5,899 nt of DNA, taken from contig JADFSZ010000113.1 in the NCBI GenBank assembly GCA_022560555.1, forward strand, positions 1 to 5,899. The letters run 5' to 3'. The DNA comes from PVC group bacterium (GTDB lineage Bacteria > GCA-001730085 > JADFSZ01). The translations under genes were made by a program, and so were the position numbers. The first letter of the stretch is position 1. Every line of letters starts with the position of its first letter. This document shows positions 1,275 through 5,899 of this stretch, piece after piece. Under the pieces are notes generated by a model. That model had not been told where the DNA came from and did no database searches. It saw nothing but the letters and a program-made list of their open reading frames with translations.

Positions 1275-2267
1275 CTAAATGGCCCCGTGGCATTCTTCGT
1301 ACGGCACCCCGCTTCCGCACGGACAAAGGCCGTCGCCGCAAGCCCCCTCACTACTTCCCTGATCATGAGAGACAGGAACGGATATGTGCACCTCCGGGGC
1401 TCCAAAAGAGTCATACGCATCGCCTGTATAAGCACCCTCGGCGGGAGGTTGTCCAACATTCATGTCACTTATGGCTTCATGATCTTGGAGCATATTTTGT
1501 TTATCGGAAATTTCTTTCGTGACCTGATCAAAAGTTTGTGACTGGTCCGAAACAGGAACACCCGGAATCGCGATTGATTCACCGTAAGGCTGCCAGCCGT
1601 CGGGAGGCATATAGCTTGTCTTTGTATCCTTTGGACAAGGATATAAATTTCGGGCATTAGTAACATCATCATCCTCAATAGGAGAATGTCGCGCGGTCCG
1701 CGGAAGCCGTTTATACATCACGGCATTGGATTTTGTGCTGTGCTTTAAGCCAAGAGCATGCCCCGCTTCATGCGCCATGGCTGACTGTAAATCATTGGCC
1801 ATCGCCCCGGGGAAATTGACATAGAGGCCATCCCCCCCCATTCCTAAAAATGCTTCGCCCCAAAAAATCACGTCAAACTCATCGCCGACTTTTTTTGTTA
1901 CGGCCAAAGCATCCCCGGCACCAACACGTTTTTGGATTTTTTTAAATCCATCTTCATCCATGGTGAGATAAACTACATTGACTTTATCTCCGGATTTGTA
2001 TTTCGCGTTTGAAAATCCCACATATTCGAATTTCACGCAAACATCCGGCAGTCCGTTCCAAGCGTTAAATCCTCCAACGATGCGGTCCACAATTTTCTTC
2101 TTTTGTTTGGCGCTGATCCTGAAATTATCTAATTCGTAGATATTAATTGCGTATTGGTACACTTTCACATCCCCTTTCGCGAACACAAGAGAAAAATCAA
2201 ACACACCTTCCATGAAGACTAAAGAAAGTATTCCGAGCAACAAGTATTTTGCTGATTTCATTATCAT
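1275..2267 (-). CDS. Secreted matrixin-like (M10/metzincin) zinc metalloprotease with an acidic linker and a C-terminal SEC-C-type zinc-binding motif.
   Basis: The ORF is 330 aa. The ATG at 2267 has AAGGGGA 5 nt upstream. The N-terminus MIMKSAKYLLLGILSLVF...SLVFA|KGD resembles a signal peptide. The zinc site HEAGHALGLKH (1740..1772) is followed by the Met-turn AVMY and DDDVTNARNLYP, as in matrixins. The C-terminal residues CPCGSGVPYEECHGAI (1278..1325) fit the SecA CxCx8CH pattern. Confidence 0.85.
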   Translation of the reverse strand: MIMKSAKYLLLGILSLVFMEGVFDFSLVFAKGDVKVYQYAINIYELDNFRISAKQKKKIVDRIVGGFNAWNGLPDVCVKFEYVGFSNAKYKSGDKVNVVYLTMDEDGFKKIQKRVGAGDALAVTKKVGDEFDVIFWGEAFLGMGGDGLYVNFPGAMANDLQSAMAHEAGHALGLKHSTKSNAVMYKRLPRTARHSPIEDDDVTNARNLYPCPKDTKTSYMPPDGWQPYGESIAIPGVPVSDQSQTFDQVTKEISDKQNMLQDHEAISDMNVGQPPAEGAYTGDAYDSFGAPEVHISVPVSHDQGSSEGACGDGLCPCGSGVPYEECHGAI

Positions 2268-2279
2268 GGGTATCCCCTT

Positions 2280-2630
2280 TTATTGAGTCTCAACGCTATT
2301 CTTCTCTTCGATCAATTTAATGATTTTGATTTCGACAGGGATGCCCCACATTTGTATTGTCATCACATCCGCCGGCACGGCTTCGAAAGAGACCCTCAGG
2401 CCGTCTTTCTTGTATTCTTCTTCTAAGTTGAGCGGGTAATATTTATCACCTTGGTCTGAAACGATCCCGTAAAAGCCTCCTTCAAATTCCATATACCGCA
2501 CTTCCCCAACACCTGCAATCATGCTTTGGGCCTGCCCGCGGCATGACGTCAAAAAGACGAACAGAATAACAAACAAAAGTTTTGTTTTCATACCACATCT
2601 CTTTGATGTCACTCTCATAAAGTATTTCAT
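2280..2630 (-). CDS. Small putative lipoprotein of unknown function with a beta-rich mature domain of about 85 aa.
   Basis: The ORF is 116 aa. The ATG at 2630 is preceded by AAAGGG 6 nt upstream, and an alternative ATG lies at 2591 (MKTKLL...). The hydrophobic segment LLFVILFVFLTSC ends in the lipobox-like L-T-S-C. The stop (2280..2282) lies 12 nt before the protease ATG, and the protease SD sits in that gap. I recognise no family. Confidence 0.6.
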   Translation of the reverse strand: MKYFMRVTSKRCGMKTKLLFVILFVFLTSCRGQAQSMIAGVGEVRYMEFEGGFYGIVSDQGDKYYPLNLEEEYKKDGLRVSFEAVPADVMTIQMWGIPVEIKIIKLIEEKNSVETQ

Positions 2631-2796: not shown

Positions 2797-2825
2797 AGTG
2801 TAAGATACGATGAATATAGTGTCAA
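2797..2825 (-). promoter_or_regulatory. Candidate sigma70-type promoter for the lipoprotein/metzincin (and possibly aldolase) transcription unit.
   Basis: On the minus strand the sequence reads TTGACA (2825..2820), a 17-nt spacer, then TACACT (2802..2797). It lies in the AT-rich gap upstream of the lipoprotein gene and implies a leader of about 160-200 nt. Confidence 0.3.
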
Positions 2826-2861
2826 TATGCTAAATATAACAGAGAGAATTCAGAGCTTGTG

Positions 2862-3350
2862 TCAATTTTCACCAATTCTTTTATAGATGTAAGTTTCTGA
2901 TGAAATGAGCATTGTGATAGAAATAAAGAGCATAAAGCTGAGGCCGATCTTGGCGTCTTTAAAATGGTTGAGCCATCCTAAGTCCAATGCTTTCATCACA
3001 TTGTACTGAGTTCCATTGGGAAGCACAAACATAGAAAATTTTACCCACAAGAGCTTTAGGTGCGTTAAAATTGGAGAGTAACCGGGATGAAAAAGAACAT
3101 TGTTATATGCACCGTAGTCGTACTCACTATAAAACAAGGTTGTGTGCTCCGTGAAGCTCACTAGTACTCCGAGAAGATTGACGGCCACTCCGGCCGCAAA
3201 CAGCCCCAAGGCCCATTTTCTCCATTTGGGTTCTTTCCGAAGCAGCGAAGCTATCGGTAACATTAACAACGAGACAACAGGATATAGAAATCGGGGGCCC
3301 CATGAAATACCGCCGCCCCAATTGATCCAAAGAGACGTTCCGAGTAAAAT
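2862..3350 (-). pseudogene. C-terminal remnant of a polytopic membrane protein of the GT-C/ArnT-PMT-like glycosyltransferase type. The N-terminus is missing.
   Basis: The listed ORF 2862..3269 begins at a TTG, and the first ATG is at 3263 with no SD. The same frame stays open for 27 more codons upstream and reads ILLGTSLWINWGGGISWGPRFLYPVVS, which looks protein-like and contains no start codon. An in-frame TGA lies at 3351..3353. Only about 80 nt separate that stop from the desaturase stop. The hydrophobic segments and the WGPR(F/Y)L and HPGYSPI motifs resemble the tail of about 500-aa GT-C enzymes. It might alternatively be expressed as a 133-135 aa product. Confidence 0.5.
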
Positions 3351-4801: not shown

Positions 4802-5160
4802 TTAAGCAAAGGAATTTTGAAGATACTGAATGATACTGTTTGAATCATACATCCATTGAACCCTACCGTTTTCTTCGATACGCAGGCACGGGACTTCGCG
4901 TTTACCACCTTCCTTTAATAATTCATTTCCGATTTTGGCAGTTTTGGCATCATGCAGTTCGATGTCGACATTCAATTTGTAAAGCACCCGACGCACCGGG
5001 AACTAAACGGACAGGCATGAAACTGATATAAGGATAAATTCTTAGATCGGCGGTCCACGTCCCTTTGATCATCTTGGGATCTCTGTATCGACTTCTGACG
5101 AGTTATGACATCAAAAATAACAATCAAGACGCCTAATATGTTTCGGATATATTTCATCAT
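4802..5160 (-). pseudogene. Membrane-anchored glutaredoxin/GST-N-like thioredoxin-fold gene interrupted by a 1-nt frameshift.
   Basis: ORF 4972..5160 encodes a TM helix (ILGVLIVIFDVI) and then LSLYQFHACPFSS, before running into a nonsense tail. ORF 4802..4996 lies in the -1 frame relative to it. That ORF continues (V)RRVLYKLNVDIELHD...GGKREVPCLRIEENG..WMYDSNSIIQYL, the rest of the fold including the cis-Pro VPCL. A strong SD, GGGAGGT, precedes the ATG at 5160/5157. The two frames join at the CCCGG run at 4996..5000. Confidence 0.7.
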
Positions 5161-5649: not shown

Positions 5650-5899
5650 TCAGTTTTTTAACGCAACACCCGTGAGATTTTGAAAAGCTTCGTAGGGTGT
5701 GTTCCAGTTCAAAACATTCCGTGGTCTTCCGTTTAGCAAATGCTGTACGCGTTTTATTTCCCGAAGCGATATTTTGTTAAAGTCTGTTCCTTTCGGGAAG
5801 AAATCCCGGATCAATCCGTTGGTGTTTTCATTCGTTCCCCTCTCCCAGGGACTAGCCGGATGCGCAAAATATACCTTCATTCGTGTTTCTTTTGTGAAT
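5650..5899 (-). CDS. IS30-family transposase, C-terminal part. The CDS continues past the right edge of the window.
   Basis: The frame is open from the edge (FTKETR MKVYFAHPASPWERGTNENTNGLIRDFFPKGTDF...LNGRPRNVLNWNTPYEAF). The W(E/Q)RGxNENTNGLxRxxFPKGTD and LNxRPRK..L...TP signatures are diagnostic of the IS30 DDE transposase C-terminus. The stop is at 5650..5652. Confidence 0.85.
   Translation of the reverse strand, partial: FTKETRMKVYFAHPASPWERGTNENTNGLIRDFFPKGTDFNKISLREIKRVQHLLNGRPRNVLNWNTPYEAFQNLTGVALKN
5650..5899 (-). mobile_element. Partial IS30-family insertion sequence (its transposase-distal end).
   Basis: This call follows from the transposase CDS above. The terminal inverted repeat should lie somewhere in 5574..5649. 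It cannot be defined because the other IS end is outside the window. Confidence 0.6.

What the first reader, a model, noticed from the sequence alone, without database searches (positions are those of the whole stretch)
1275..2267. Exported matrixin-type metzincin ending in a SecA-type SEC-C zinc knuckle
Seen in sequence: an N-terminal signal-like peptide; a complete matrixin catalytic core (HEAGHALGLKH, Met-turn AVMY, DDD..NLYP) with no PRCGxPD cysteine-switch propeptide; about 100 aa of acidic, low-complexity linker; and the final 16 residues CPCGSGVPYEECHGAI, preceded by another Cys (GACGDGL). The CxCx8CH spacing and the CPCGSG string match the metal-binding domain at the C-terminus of E. 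coli SecA (CPCGSGKKYKQCHG). That domain is known as a cytoplasmic zinc/iron-binding module that docks on SecB and ribosomes, and it also occurs in YecA and YchJ. Finding it on a protein that appears destined for export is topologically odd. The basic KKYK patch that contacts SecB is also replaced here by VPYEE. Inference: the tail could (a) act as an intramolecular, C-terminal 'cysteine switch' that caps the catalytic zinc and substitutes for the missing propeptide, (b) act as a self-contained export or holding signal, or (c) bind metal in the periplasm. I know of no characterised metzincin with this architecture.
Basis: partly seen in the sequence, partly recalled or inferred. Interest (0 to 1): 0.7.

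Follow-up and report, generated by a model that had tools for sequence, protein, structure and literature searches.

The report
Exported MMP-like protease with SecA-type knuckle
A secreted zinc protease from an uncultured PVC-group bacterium really does end in the small metal-binding knuckle normally found on the cytoplasmic secretion motor SecA, but the protease's few relatives have all lost or broken the knuckle, so it is a rare, optional add-on and its role is still unknown.

Summary
The 330-aa ORF at 1275..2267 (minus strand) passes both Pfam cutoffs: Peptidase_M10 at 44.5 bits (cutoff 24) and SEC-C at 24.7 bits (cutoff 20.4). Its model matches MMP catalytic domains. The signal peptide, with an AxA|K cleavage site, is conserved in 7 of 7 relatives with complete N-termini. 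There is no propeptide. The 120-aa acidic tail is predicted disordered.

The knuckle (C315, C317, S319, Y323, C326, H327) carries every SecA metal-binding-domain hallmark in register.

New here: the family is tiny, 8 clusters among 5.8 billion proteins, and only the window keeps the knuckle intact. Two relatives hold disabled copies beyond their annotated stops:
- L001: CP-TGA-KSG, then a 2-nt deletion, then PYAECCGAI*.
- L006: CH-TGA-GSGKSYDHC-TGA.

Synonymous sites are saturated between these lineages, so the knuckle is ancestral and was long under selection. It has nonetheless been lost repeatedly, which argues against a required export signal. A terminal Cys on the acidic tail is kept in 7 of 8.

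AlphaFold2 shows no tail docking, so the cysteine-switch idea stays untested. Reading the recurrent TGA as selenocysteine got no SECIS support.

Verdict: a real, rare architecture of unknown function and moderate interest.

The parts
1275..2267 (-). Complete CDS, 330 aa plus TAG stop at 1275..1277. It equals NCBI MCH7505213.1, 'matrixin family metalloprotease [PVC group bacterium]'.
2274..2279 (-). Shine-Dalgarno-like AAGGGG, 6 nt upstream of the ATG. The upstream gene's TAA stop is at 2280..2282.
   Evidence: read from the sequence
2178..2267 (-). Signal peptide, residues 1-30: MIMKSAK, then a hydrophobic core, then VFA|KGD.
   Evidence: Two Lys, KD10 2.9 and a V-x-A|K site. The same layout and cleavage position are conserved in 7 of 7 relatives with N-termini. 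AF2 models a helix at 6-19 followed by a low-confidence stretch. SignalP was not available.
1623..2171 (-). MMP-like catalytic domain, residues about 33-215.
   Evidence: pLDDT about 90. Foldseek top hits are the catalytic domains of MMP-9, -3, -11, -13, -12 and karilysin, with target-normalised TM 0.6-0.69. Pfam PF00413. dN much lower than dS against relatives.
1737..1772 (-). Zinc-binding motif HEAGHALGLKHS, residues 166-177.
   Evidence: H166, E167, H170, H176 invariant in the family; aligned to MMP-9
1713..1724 (-). Met-turn AVMY, residues 182-185.
   Evidence: M184 is invariant and aligned to the MMP-9 ALMY.
1341..1622 (-). Acidic, disordered linker, residues 216-309.
   Evidence: Composition and pI 4.1. 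pLDDT below 50. An acidic tail of 77-120 aa is present in the window and all 7 close family members; only the distant P0008 has a basic C-terminal region instead.
1338..1340 (-). Extra Cys310 (…EGACGDG…). It resembles the …EEC[DQ]GD ends of the knuckle-less relatives.
1287..1325 (-). SecA-type (SEC-C) metal-binding knuckle: C315-P-C317-G-S319-G-V-P-Y323-E-E-C326-H327. It is followed by G-A-I and the stop.
   Evidence: Pfam SEC-C at 24.7 bits for the whole protein and 30.0 bits for the tail alone. PDB SecA MBD peptides. Register of ligands, Ser and Tyr as described in 10.1101/613315. Homologous disabled copies in L001 and L006.
2280..2630 (-). Small lipoprotein gene immediately upstream, probably co-transcribed. 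The likely start is the MKTKLLF… ATG at 2591, and the lipobox is LTSC. It is not a conserved partner of the family.

Best explanation
SHOWN. This is a genuine gene for a Sec-exported, propeptide-less, MMP-like (matrixin-type) zinc endopeptidase. Its 120-aa acidic, disordered C-terminal tail ends in a bona fide SecA-type CxCxSGxxYxxCH metal-binding knuckle. The knuckle was already present in the ancestor of this very small family and was kept under selection for a long time. It is nevertheless dispensable: every other lineage with readable DNA has truncated, frame-shifted or deleted it, while keeping the signal peptide, the catalytic domain, the acidic tail and usually one terminal Cys.

INFERRED. 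Relatives are still built for export without the knuckle, so it is not the export signal. It most likely works after export, as an accessory metal/thiol module on a flexible tether.

My preferred mechanism, at about 25-30% on its own, is as follows. The conserved terminal Cys or thiolates on the roughly 100-residue acidic tether reach back and reversibly cap the catalytic zinc. That would be a C-terminal counterpart of the N-terminal cysteine switch, supplying latency to an enzyme with no propeptide. The full knuckle would add metal- or redox-dependence to that cap.
For: Identity: Pfam M10 and SEC-C both score above their cutoffs. The AF2 catalytic domain has pLDDT about 90 and matches MMP catalytic domains and karilysin. 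All SecA MBD hallmark residues are in register.

Export: the n-region, h-region and AxA|K site are conserved in 7 of 7 members.

Ancestry of the knuckle: L001 reads CP-TGA-KSG, a 2-nt gap, then PYAECCGAI*. L006 reads CH-TGA-GSGKSYDHC-TGA. The repaired tails score 25.0 and 19.2 bits on SEC-C, while four control read-throughs score nothing. Synonymous sites are saturated between the window and all relatives (pS 0.70-0.83), so unselected DNA would not be recognisable. The L001 tail differs from the window by synonymous changes (CCG/CCC, AGC/AGT, CCG/CCT, GGG/GGA) and a ligand-preserving His-to-Cys swap.

Dispensability: L004 has lost the tail, and L007 and L018 end …EEC[DQ]GD-TAA.

For a thiol-tether role: there is no propeptide in any member. 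An acidic tail is present in the window and all 7 close members. A Cys lies within the last 2-5 residues (the last of several, at 5 from the end, in the window) in 7 of the 8 tails examined among the window and close members. All known metzincin latency works by a Cys or Asp ligand capping the zinc (PMC6949598).
Against: AlphaFold2 does not dock the tail in the window protein or in knuckle-less P0004. The final blocks have pLDDT 42-47 and 45-46.

A fully metal-loaded four-ligand knuckle would have no free thiolate to give to the catalytic zinc.

P0007 has neither a terminal Cys nor a signal peptide.

Repeated loss of the knuckle shows that whatever it does is not essential.

No experiment, SignalP run or InterPro architecture query was possible. 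The family comprises only 8 clusters, so the comparative inferences rest on few lineages.
Confidence: 0.5

Rival explanations
1. The knuckle is simply a second, independent metal site used after export, with no inhibitory contact with the active site. It would bind Zn or Fe in the periplasm or outside the cell. It might capture or hand over metal to the Sec-exported, initially metal-free catalytic domain, or tether the enzyme to a partner or surface.
For: All ligand, Ser and Tyr hallmarks of a metal-binding SEC-C are intact. AF2 shows no docking to the catalytic domain. The enzyme is exported unfolded and must acquire zinc outside the cytoplasm (inference from the Sec signal).
Against: Cys-rich metal sites are uncommon in oxidising compartments. 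The same contig encodes an O2-dependent fatty-acid desaturase, so the organism sees oxygen. Relatives do without the knuckle. This reading does not explain why one terminal Cys is retained after the knuckle is lost.
Confidence: 0.22
2. The knuckle acts before export, in the cytoplasm. Like the SecA and YecA metal-binding domains, it would dock on ribosomes, SecA or a holdase, or keep the C-terminus busy. The dangerous, propeptide-less protease would then stay unfolded or inactive until it is translocated.
For: SEC-C domains of SecA and YecA bind ribosomes or SecB and support Sec translocation (abstracts of 10.1101/613315 and 10.1101/2020.07.21.215244). The module is otherwise known from cytoplasmic proteins.
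Against: Relatives keep the signal peptide and catalytic domain but have lost the knuckle, so export does not depend on it. The basic KKYK patch of SecA is VPYEE here. A C-terminal module emerges only when synthesis is finished.
Confidence: 0.1
3. In the window too, the knuckle is a relic with no present function. It would simply be the last intact copy of an accessory that the family is shedding.
For: Five other lineages have lost or disabled it. In the closest genome (L003, 93-97% nt identity) the whole gene is cut at residue 184.
Against: In the window all six hallmark residues, the reading frame and the GAI* ending are intact, despite saturated synonymous divergence from L001 and L006. That pattern implies purifying selection in this lineage until recently.
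Confidence: 0.13
4. The TGA at the second-Cys codon in relatives is decoded as selenocysteine or otherwise read through. The family tail would then be C-x-[C/U]-x8-C-[C/H], and the database proteins are mis-truncated.
For: TGA sits exactly at the Cys2 codon in L001, L006 and L004, which belong to two clades with saturated dS. In L006 a SEC-C-like sequence follows in frame (19.2 bits). L004 and L006 (dS 0.59) seem to share the TGA by descent, yet the L006 tail still reads G-S-G-x-x-Y-x-x-C. A Cys/TGA alignment with conserved flanks is the classic selenoprotein signature (own knowledge).
Against: There is no Rfam SECIS match. The hairpins after the TGAs fold no better than shuffles (z 0.04, -1.32, -0.05), and their loops (AUAC, AAUG) lack the loop G that I recall from published bacterial SECIS models (own knowledge). 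Both tails carry a second lesion: a 2-nt deletion in L001, and TGA at ligand 4 with loss of the GAI ending in L006. In L004 nothing SEC-C-like follows, and the next gene starts 18 nt later. TGA is an ordinary stop in neighbouring genes.
Confidence: 0.08

Closest known systems
Bacterial MMP-like matrixins (MEROPS M10A), e.g. karilysin of Tannerella forsythia, and mammalian MMP catalytic domains
   Same: HExxHxxGxxH-S zinc motif, Met-turn, DDxxxxxxLY motif, overall fold (Foldseek TM 0.6-0.69 to MMP-9/-3/-11/-13/-12 and karilysin) and secretion by a signal peptide.
   Different: There is no N-terminal pro-segment: neither the PRCGxPD cysteine switch of MMPs nor the 14-residue aspartate-switch peptide of karilysin. 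No His lies N-terminal to the HExxH, so the MMP structural-zinc site is absent. It has a long acidic C-terminal tail with a SEC-C knuckle in place of hemopexin or other C-terminal domains.
SecA C-terminal metal-binding domain (SEC-C, PF02810), also found in YecA and YchJ
   Same: CxCxSGxxYxxCH, with all four ligands, the conserved Ser and the aromatic residue in exact register. It sits at the extreme C-terminus after a flexible linker, as in SecA.
   Different: The host protein carries a cleavable signal peptide, so the knuckle ends up outside the cytoplasm. The basic SecB-contacting residues (KKYKQ) are VPYEE here. Metal binding, and ribosome or SecB binding, are untested.
Cysteine-switch zymogens of metzincins (pro-MMPs, promirolysin, promyroilysin)
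   Same: A Cys, often in a Cys-Gly context, on a flexible segment could cap the catalytic zinc. The window has C310-G and C317-G.
   Different: All described switches are N-terminal pro-segments (PMC6949598). Here the candidate is C-terminal, and no docking is predicted. This is a resemblance in possible mechanism only.
Minigluzincins proabylysin and projannalysin
   Same: A precedent for a metallopeptidase being self-inhibited by a C-terminal tail that occupies the active-site cleft.
   Different: They belong to a different clan (gluzincins), are cytoplasmic or archaeal, have no Cys knuckle and have a short tail.

Membership tests
Matrixin / Peptidase_M10 (PF00413, MEROPS M10A) | Profile match above Pfam's gathering score | tested here: met
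   44.5 bits against a cutoff of 24, but only profile positions 103-158 align. Relative P0001 aligns over positions 9-158 at 51.6 bits.
Matrixin / Peptidase_M10 (PF00413, MEROPS M10A) | HExxHxxGxxH with Ser after the third His, plus a Met-turn | tested here: met
   HEAGHALGLKHS at residues 166-177 and AVMY at 182-185. They are invariant in the family and aligned to MMP-9.
Matrixin / Peptidase_M10 (PF00413, MEROPS M10A) | MMP catalytic-domain fold | tested here: met
   The AF2 domain has pLDDT about 90. All top 50 Foldseek PDB hits are MMPs or karilysin, with E 3e-7 to 1e-5.
Matrixin / Peptidase_M10 (PF00413, MEROPS M10A) | Second (structural) zinc site of MMPs (three His plus Asp in the S-loop) | tested here: not met
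   There is no His anywhere N-terminal to H166. The equivalent loop (residues 141-160) is the least confident part of the domain.
Matrixin / Peptidase_M10 (PF00413, MEROPS M10A) | N-terminal pro-segment with a PRCGxPD cysteine switch (animal MMPs) | tested here: not met
   The motif is absent. The predicted signal cleavage lies 3-4 residues before strand 1.
Matrixin / Peptidase_M10 (PF00413, MEROPS M10A) | Zinc-dependent endopeptidase activity | not testable with these tools
   Needs enzymology.
SEC-C / SecA-type metal-binding domain (PF02810) | Profile match above Pfam's gathering score | tested here: met
   24.7 bits for the whole protein and 30.0 bits for the tail alone, against a cutoff of 20.4. 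SecA MBD peptides 1tm6, 1sx0 and 1ozb_I match at E 2e-4 to 1e-3.
SEC-C / SecA-type metal-binding domain (PF02810) | Four ligands C-x-C-x8-C-[H/C], plus the conserved Ser (+2 after Cys2) and the aromatic residue (+6) | tested here: met
   C315, C317, S319, Y323, C326 and H327 correspond to E. coli SecA C885, C887, S889, Y893, C896 and H897.
SEC-C / SecA-type metal-binding domain (PF02810) | Binds Zn or Fe | not testable with these tools
   Needs ICP-MS or spectroscopy on the purified tail.
SEC-C / SecA-type metal-binding domain (PF02810) | Cytoplasmic location and docking on SecB or ribosomes through basic residues | tested here: not met
   The host protein has a conserved cleavable signal peptide. 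KKYKQ is replaced by VPYEE. Binding itself was not testable.
Sec signal peptide (signal peptidase I type) | Basic n-region, hydrophobic h-region, small residues at -3 and -1 | tested here: met
   K4 and K7; a 10-residue window with KD 2.9; VFA|K. The layout and site are conserved in 7 of 7 members. This used rule-based criteria only, because SignalP was not available.
Bacterial selenoprotein (applies to relatives L001 and L006, not to the window) | In-frame TGA aligned with Cys in a homologue, with conserved sequence on both sides | tested here: met
   L006 is in frame. L001 is in frame for 3 codons, then has a 2-nt deletion.
Bacterial selenoprotein (applies to relatives L001 and L006, not to the window) | SECIS stem-loop just downstream of the UGA | tested here: not met
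   There are no Rfam SECIS hits. Hairpin z-scores are 0.04, -1.32 and -0.05.
Bacterial selenoprotein (applies to relatives L001 and L006, not to the window) | selA/selB/selC/selD present in the genome | not testable with these tools
   Only short metagenome contigs are held.

The most novel reading that the evidence does not exclude
This small family uses a C-terminal latency device: a thiolate carried on a roughly 100-residue acidic tether caps the catalytic zinc of a propeptide-less MMP-like enzyme. The device would be the SecA-type knuckle in the window and a single terminal Cys in relatives. This would be the first C-terminal cysteine switch in a metzincin, and the first job for a SEC-C knuckle outside the cytoplasm. 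A still more exotic add-on, at about 8% or less, is that the recurrent TGA at the Cys2 codon in relatives is selenocysteine.
Probability: 0.2. Interest if true: 0.75.

Novelty: new variant of a known kind. Interest (0 to 1): 0.45.

Why it matters
If the tail is functional, it would show a SecA-type metal knuckle working outside the cytoplasm. It could also reveal a new, C-terminal way of keeping a secreted metzincin latent; all described mechanisms are N-terminal. That bears on how propeptide-less bacterial MMP-like enzymes avoid damaging their producer.

The comparative result also matters practically. Database proteins of this family are annotated as ending at a TGA that sits on a metal-ligand codon, which hides a conserved domain remnant. 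The repeated loss gives a natural deletion series (intact, truncated, deleted) for testing the tail's role.

If the tail is an optional relic, the finding is just a curiosity of domain shuffling in an uncultured PVC-group lineage.

Tried and rejected
1. Looking for more family members. The single-protein search, the family-profile search and the exhaustive 1.84-billion-representative search give only 8 clusters. The metagenome, genome and viral contig scans were swamped by generic HEAGH patterns and returned only distant M10 proteins or nothing.

2. Searching with the tail alone to list architectures carrying similar knuckles. The third found no candidate sharing three 5-mers.

3. Alternative genetic code (TGA = Trp or Gly). 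Rejected, because TGA ends several neighbouring genes.

4. Selenocysteine. There is no SECIS by Rfam or by shuffle-controlled folding, and both tails carry second lesions.

5. Programmed +1 frameshift at CCC-TGA in L001. The product lacks CxC and does not match SEC-C (protein 4). Rejected as unnecessary.

6. Conserved partner or inhibitor gene. The upstream lipoprotein is shared only with the near-identical L003. Other loci have unrelated neighbours, and it has no Pfam or PDB match.

7. C-terminal sorting signal (MYXO-CTERM, GlyGly-CTERM). The NCBIfam hits are only to the catalytic core and lie far below the cutoffs. The tail has no C-terminal hydrophobic helix.

8. Tail docking by AlphaFold2, in the window protein and in knuckle-less P0004. 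The tails have pLDDT below 50, so this gives no support. AF2 does not model metals, so it is also not a refutation.

9. Assembly artefact. Rejected, because the same tail, including the GAI* ending, sits at the same gene end in independent samples.

10. Literature on the source MAG or on SEC-C plus protease. Nothing found.
Full report
**Observation**

The window is an entire 5,899-bp contig of an uncultured 'PVC group bacterium' MAG. The ORF at 1275..2267 lies on the minus strand and encodes 330 aa. It is identical to NCBI MCH7505213.1, which is annotated only as 'matrixin family metalloprotease'. A Shine-Dalgarno-like AAGGGG sits 6 nt upstream of the ATG, and the stop of a small lipoprotein gene lies 12 nt upstream.

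Pfam gives Peptidase_M10 at 44.5 bits (cutoff 24) and SEC-C at 24.7 bits (cutoff 20.4). The last 31 residues alone score 30.0 bits on SEC-C. They also hit the solved SecA metal-binding peptides 1tm6, 1sx0 and 1ozb_I at E 2e-4 to 1e-3.

**Anatomy**

*Signal peptide.* Residues 1-30 have two Lys, a strongly hydrophobic core and VFA|KGD. The same layout, with an (A/V)-x-A|K site at the aligned position, occurs in all 7 family members that have complete N-termini. This is good comparative evidence for a cleavable Sec signal. SignalP was not available.

*Catalytic domain.* Residues about 33-215 fold with pLDDT about 90 into an MMP-like catalytic domain. The 50 best PDB matches are all MMP-9, -3, -11, -13, -12, -2 or -7 or karilysin. 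HEAGHALGLKHS, the AVMY Met-turn and the DDD…LYP motif are invariant or nearly invariant in the family.

*Departures from classic MMPs.* There is no pro-segment. There is also no His upstream of the HExxH, so the structural-zinc site is missing.

*Tail.* Residues 211-330 are acidic (19 D+E against 4 K+R, pI 4.1) and predicted disordered.

*Knuckle.* It reads C315-P-C317-G-S319-G-V-P-Y323-E-E-C326-H327. This reproduces the four ligands, the conserved Ser and the aromatic residue that define the SecA metal-binding domain (10.1101/613315). The basic SecB-contact residues are acidic here.

**What the relatives show**

The family is tiny. Three searches, of 5.8 billion proteins and of 1.84 billion representatives, give 8 clusters. 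None of 154 retrieved M10 relatives has a CxC…C[HC] tail. No annotated family protein has the knuckle either. The DNA beyond their annotated stops is informative:

| Locus | Reading at the gene end |
|---|---|
| window | C P C G S G V P Y E E C H G A I * |
| L001/L002 | C P TGA K S G, then one base where a codon should be, then P Y A E C C G A I * |
| L006 | C H TGA G S G K S Y D H C TGA |
| L004/L005 | C Q TGA, then unrelated sequence; the next gene starts 18 nt later |
| L007, L018-L020 | …EEC[DQ]GD-TAA |

With TGA read as Cys and the 2-nt gap closed, the L001 tail scores 25.0 bits on SEC-C and the L006 tail scores 19.2 bits. Four control read-throughs score nothing. The strict knuckle pattern occurs nowhere else in six-frame translations of about 155 kb of held DNA.

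Synonymous sites are saturated between the window gene and every relative (pS 0.70-0.83), so unselected DNA would be unrecognisable. The L001 tail differs from the window by several synonymous changes and a His-to-Cys ligand swap.

Three conclusions follow:
- The knuckle is ancestral to the family.
- It was maintained by selection for most of the family's history.
- It has been lost or disabled independently in the other lineages.

It is intact only in the window. In the window's closest genome (L003, 93-97% nt identity) the gene is cut at residue 184 by a rearrangement or an assembly join, so that genome says nothing about the tail.

**The recurrent TGA**

TGA sits exactly on the Cys2 codon in three relatives from two deeply diverged clades. 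That is the classic look of a Cys/selenocysteine pair, so I tested the idea.
- TGA is an ordinary stop in neighbouring genes, which excludes codes 4 and 25.
- No Rfam SECIS model matches.
- The hairpins after the TGAs are no more stable than dinucleotide shuffles (z 0.04, -1.32, -0.05).
- Both tails carry a second lesion.

Decay is therefore the simpler reading. One point stays unexplained. L004 and L006 (dS 0.59) seem to share the TGA by descent, yet the L006 tail is still SEC-C-like. I put selenocysteine or read-through at about 8%.

**Mechanism**

*Shown.* This is an exported MMP-like enzyme without a propeptide. Its SEC-C knuckle is real, ancestral and dispensable. The family-wide constants are the signal peptide, the catalytic core and the acidic tail, and a Cys lies near the C-terminal end in 7 of the 8 tails examined among the window and its close relatives.

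*Inferred.*
- Relatives remain export-competent by sequence without the knuckle, so the knuckle is unlikely to be an export or holding signal.
- Knuckle-less relatives also lack a propeptide but keep a terminal Cys. Any switch would therefore need only one thiol, with the knuckle as an elaboration.
- All described metzincin latency mechanisms use a Cys or Asp from an N-terminal segment to cap the zinc (PMC6949598). A C-terminal version is plausible and would be new.
- AlphaFold2 does not dock the tail in the window protein or in P0004. AF2 also cannot model metal-mediated contacts.

I therefore commit to 'accessory metal/thiol module on a tether, acting after export, most likely in reversible capping of the catalytic zinc'. 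The mechanistic part has only 25-30% confidence. The rivals are a plain periplasmic metal site (about 22%), a relic (about 13%) and a cytoplasmic pre-export role (about 10%).

**Context**

The lipoprotein gene upstream is probably co-transcribed. A promoter-like site lies at 2825..2797, and there is no terminator between the two genes. However, it is conserved only in L003, and other family loci have unrelated neighbours. The protease is therefore a stand-alone gene with no conserved partner.

**Novelty and score**

Both domains are well known. Their combination on an exported protein was not found in any relative or in the searchable literature. I could not query InterPro architectures.

I file this as a new variant of a known kind. 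Interest is moderate (0.45). The architecture is genuinely odd and the comparative pattern is curious. Against that, the knuckle is evidently optional, its function is untested, and SEC-C is a promiscuous motif.

Noticed in passing
window 4802..5160 (-): A glutaredoxin/GST_N-like gene is split over two reading frames near 4990-5000 (…LYQFHACPFSSRC…* in one frame, …VRRVLYKLNVDIELHD… in another). It could be a frameshift, a pseudogene or an assembly error.
   Followed up: partly
window about 2849..3265, holding the 135-aa membrane ORF at 2862..3269 (-): This roughly 417-bp segment is absent from the 97%-identical relative L003. The junction shows only short microhomology. The ORF has no family match.
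   Followed up: partly
L003 2700..3387, corresponding to window 1721: In the closest genome (GCA_022561295.1), homology to the window stops inside the protease just before the Met-turn. The annotated protein P0002 ends …NAAT* at residue 184. Unrelated DNA follows, with a 205-aa ORF on the other strand and no Pfam hit. This is either a rearrangement or a chimeric assembly.
   Followed up: partly
window 2280..2630 (-); promoter-like site at 2825..2797 (-): A small lipoprotein (lipobox LTSC) is encoded 12 nt upstream of the protease and is probably co-transcribed. It has no Pfam or PDB match and is conserved only in L003. Whether it is a protease partner or inhibitor is unknown.
   Followed up: partly
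L018 10923..11654 and L019 1849..2580: An Rce1-like/CPBP intramembrane protease gene starts 20 nt after the stop of family member P0156. That protein ends …EECQGD, a C-x-x-x end reminiscent of a CaaX box. The gene is not present next to other family members.
   Followed up: no
L017 978..1730: Family member P0007 has no signal peptide and no terminal Cys. It starts 4 nt after a DUF192 gene and is possibly a cytoplasmic or degenerate variant.
   Followed up: no
window 5650..5880 (-): A weak integrase-core (rve_3) fragment lies at the contig end, suggesting an IS remnant.
   Followed up: no
L006 992..1501: A DsbD/CcdA-type thiol-reductant transporter gene lies about 330 nt upstream of the family member that has the CH-TGA-GSGKSYDHC tail. 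Such a transporter could keep exported cysteines reduced, but the linkage is not conserved elsewhere.
   Followed up: no
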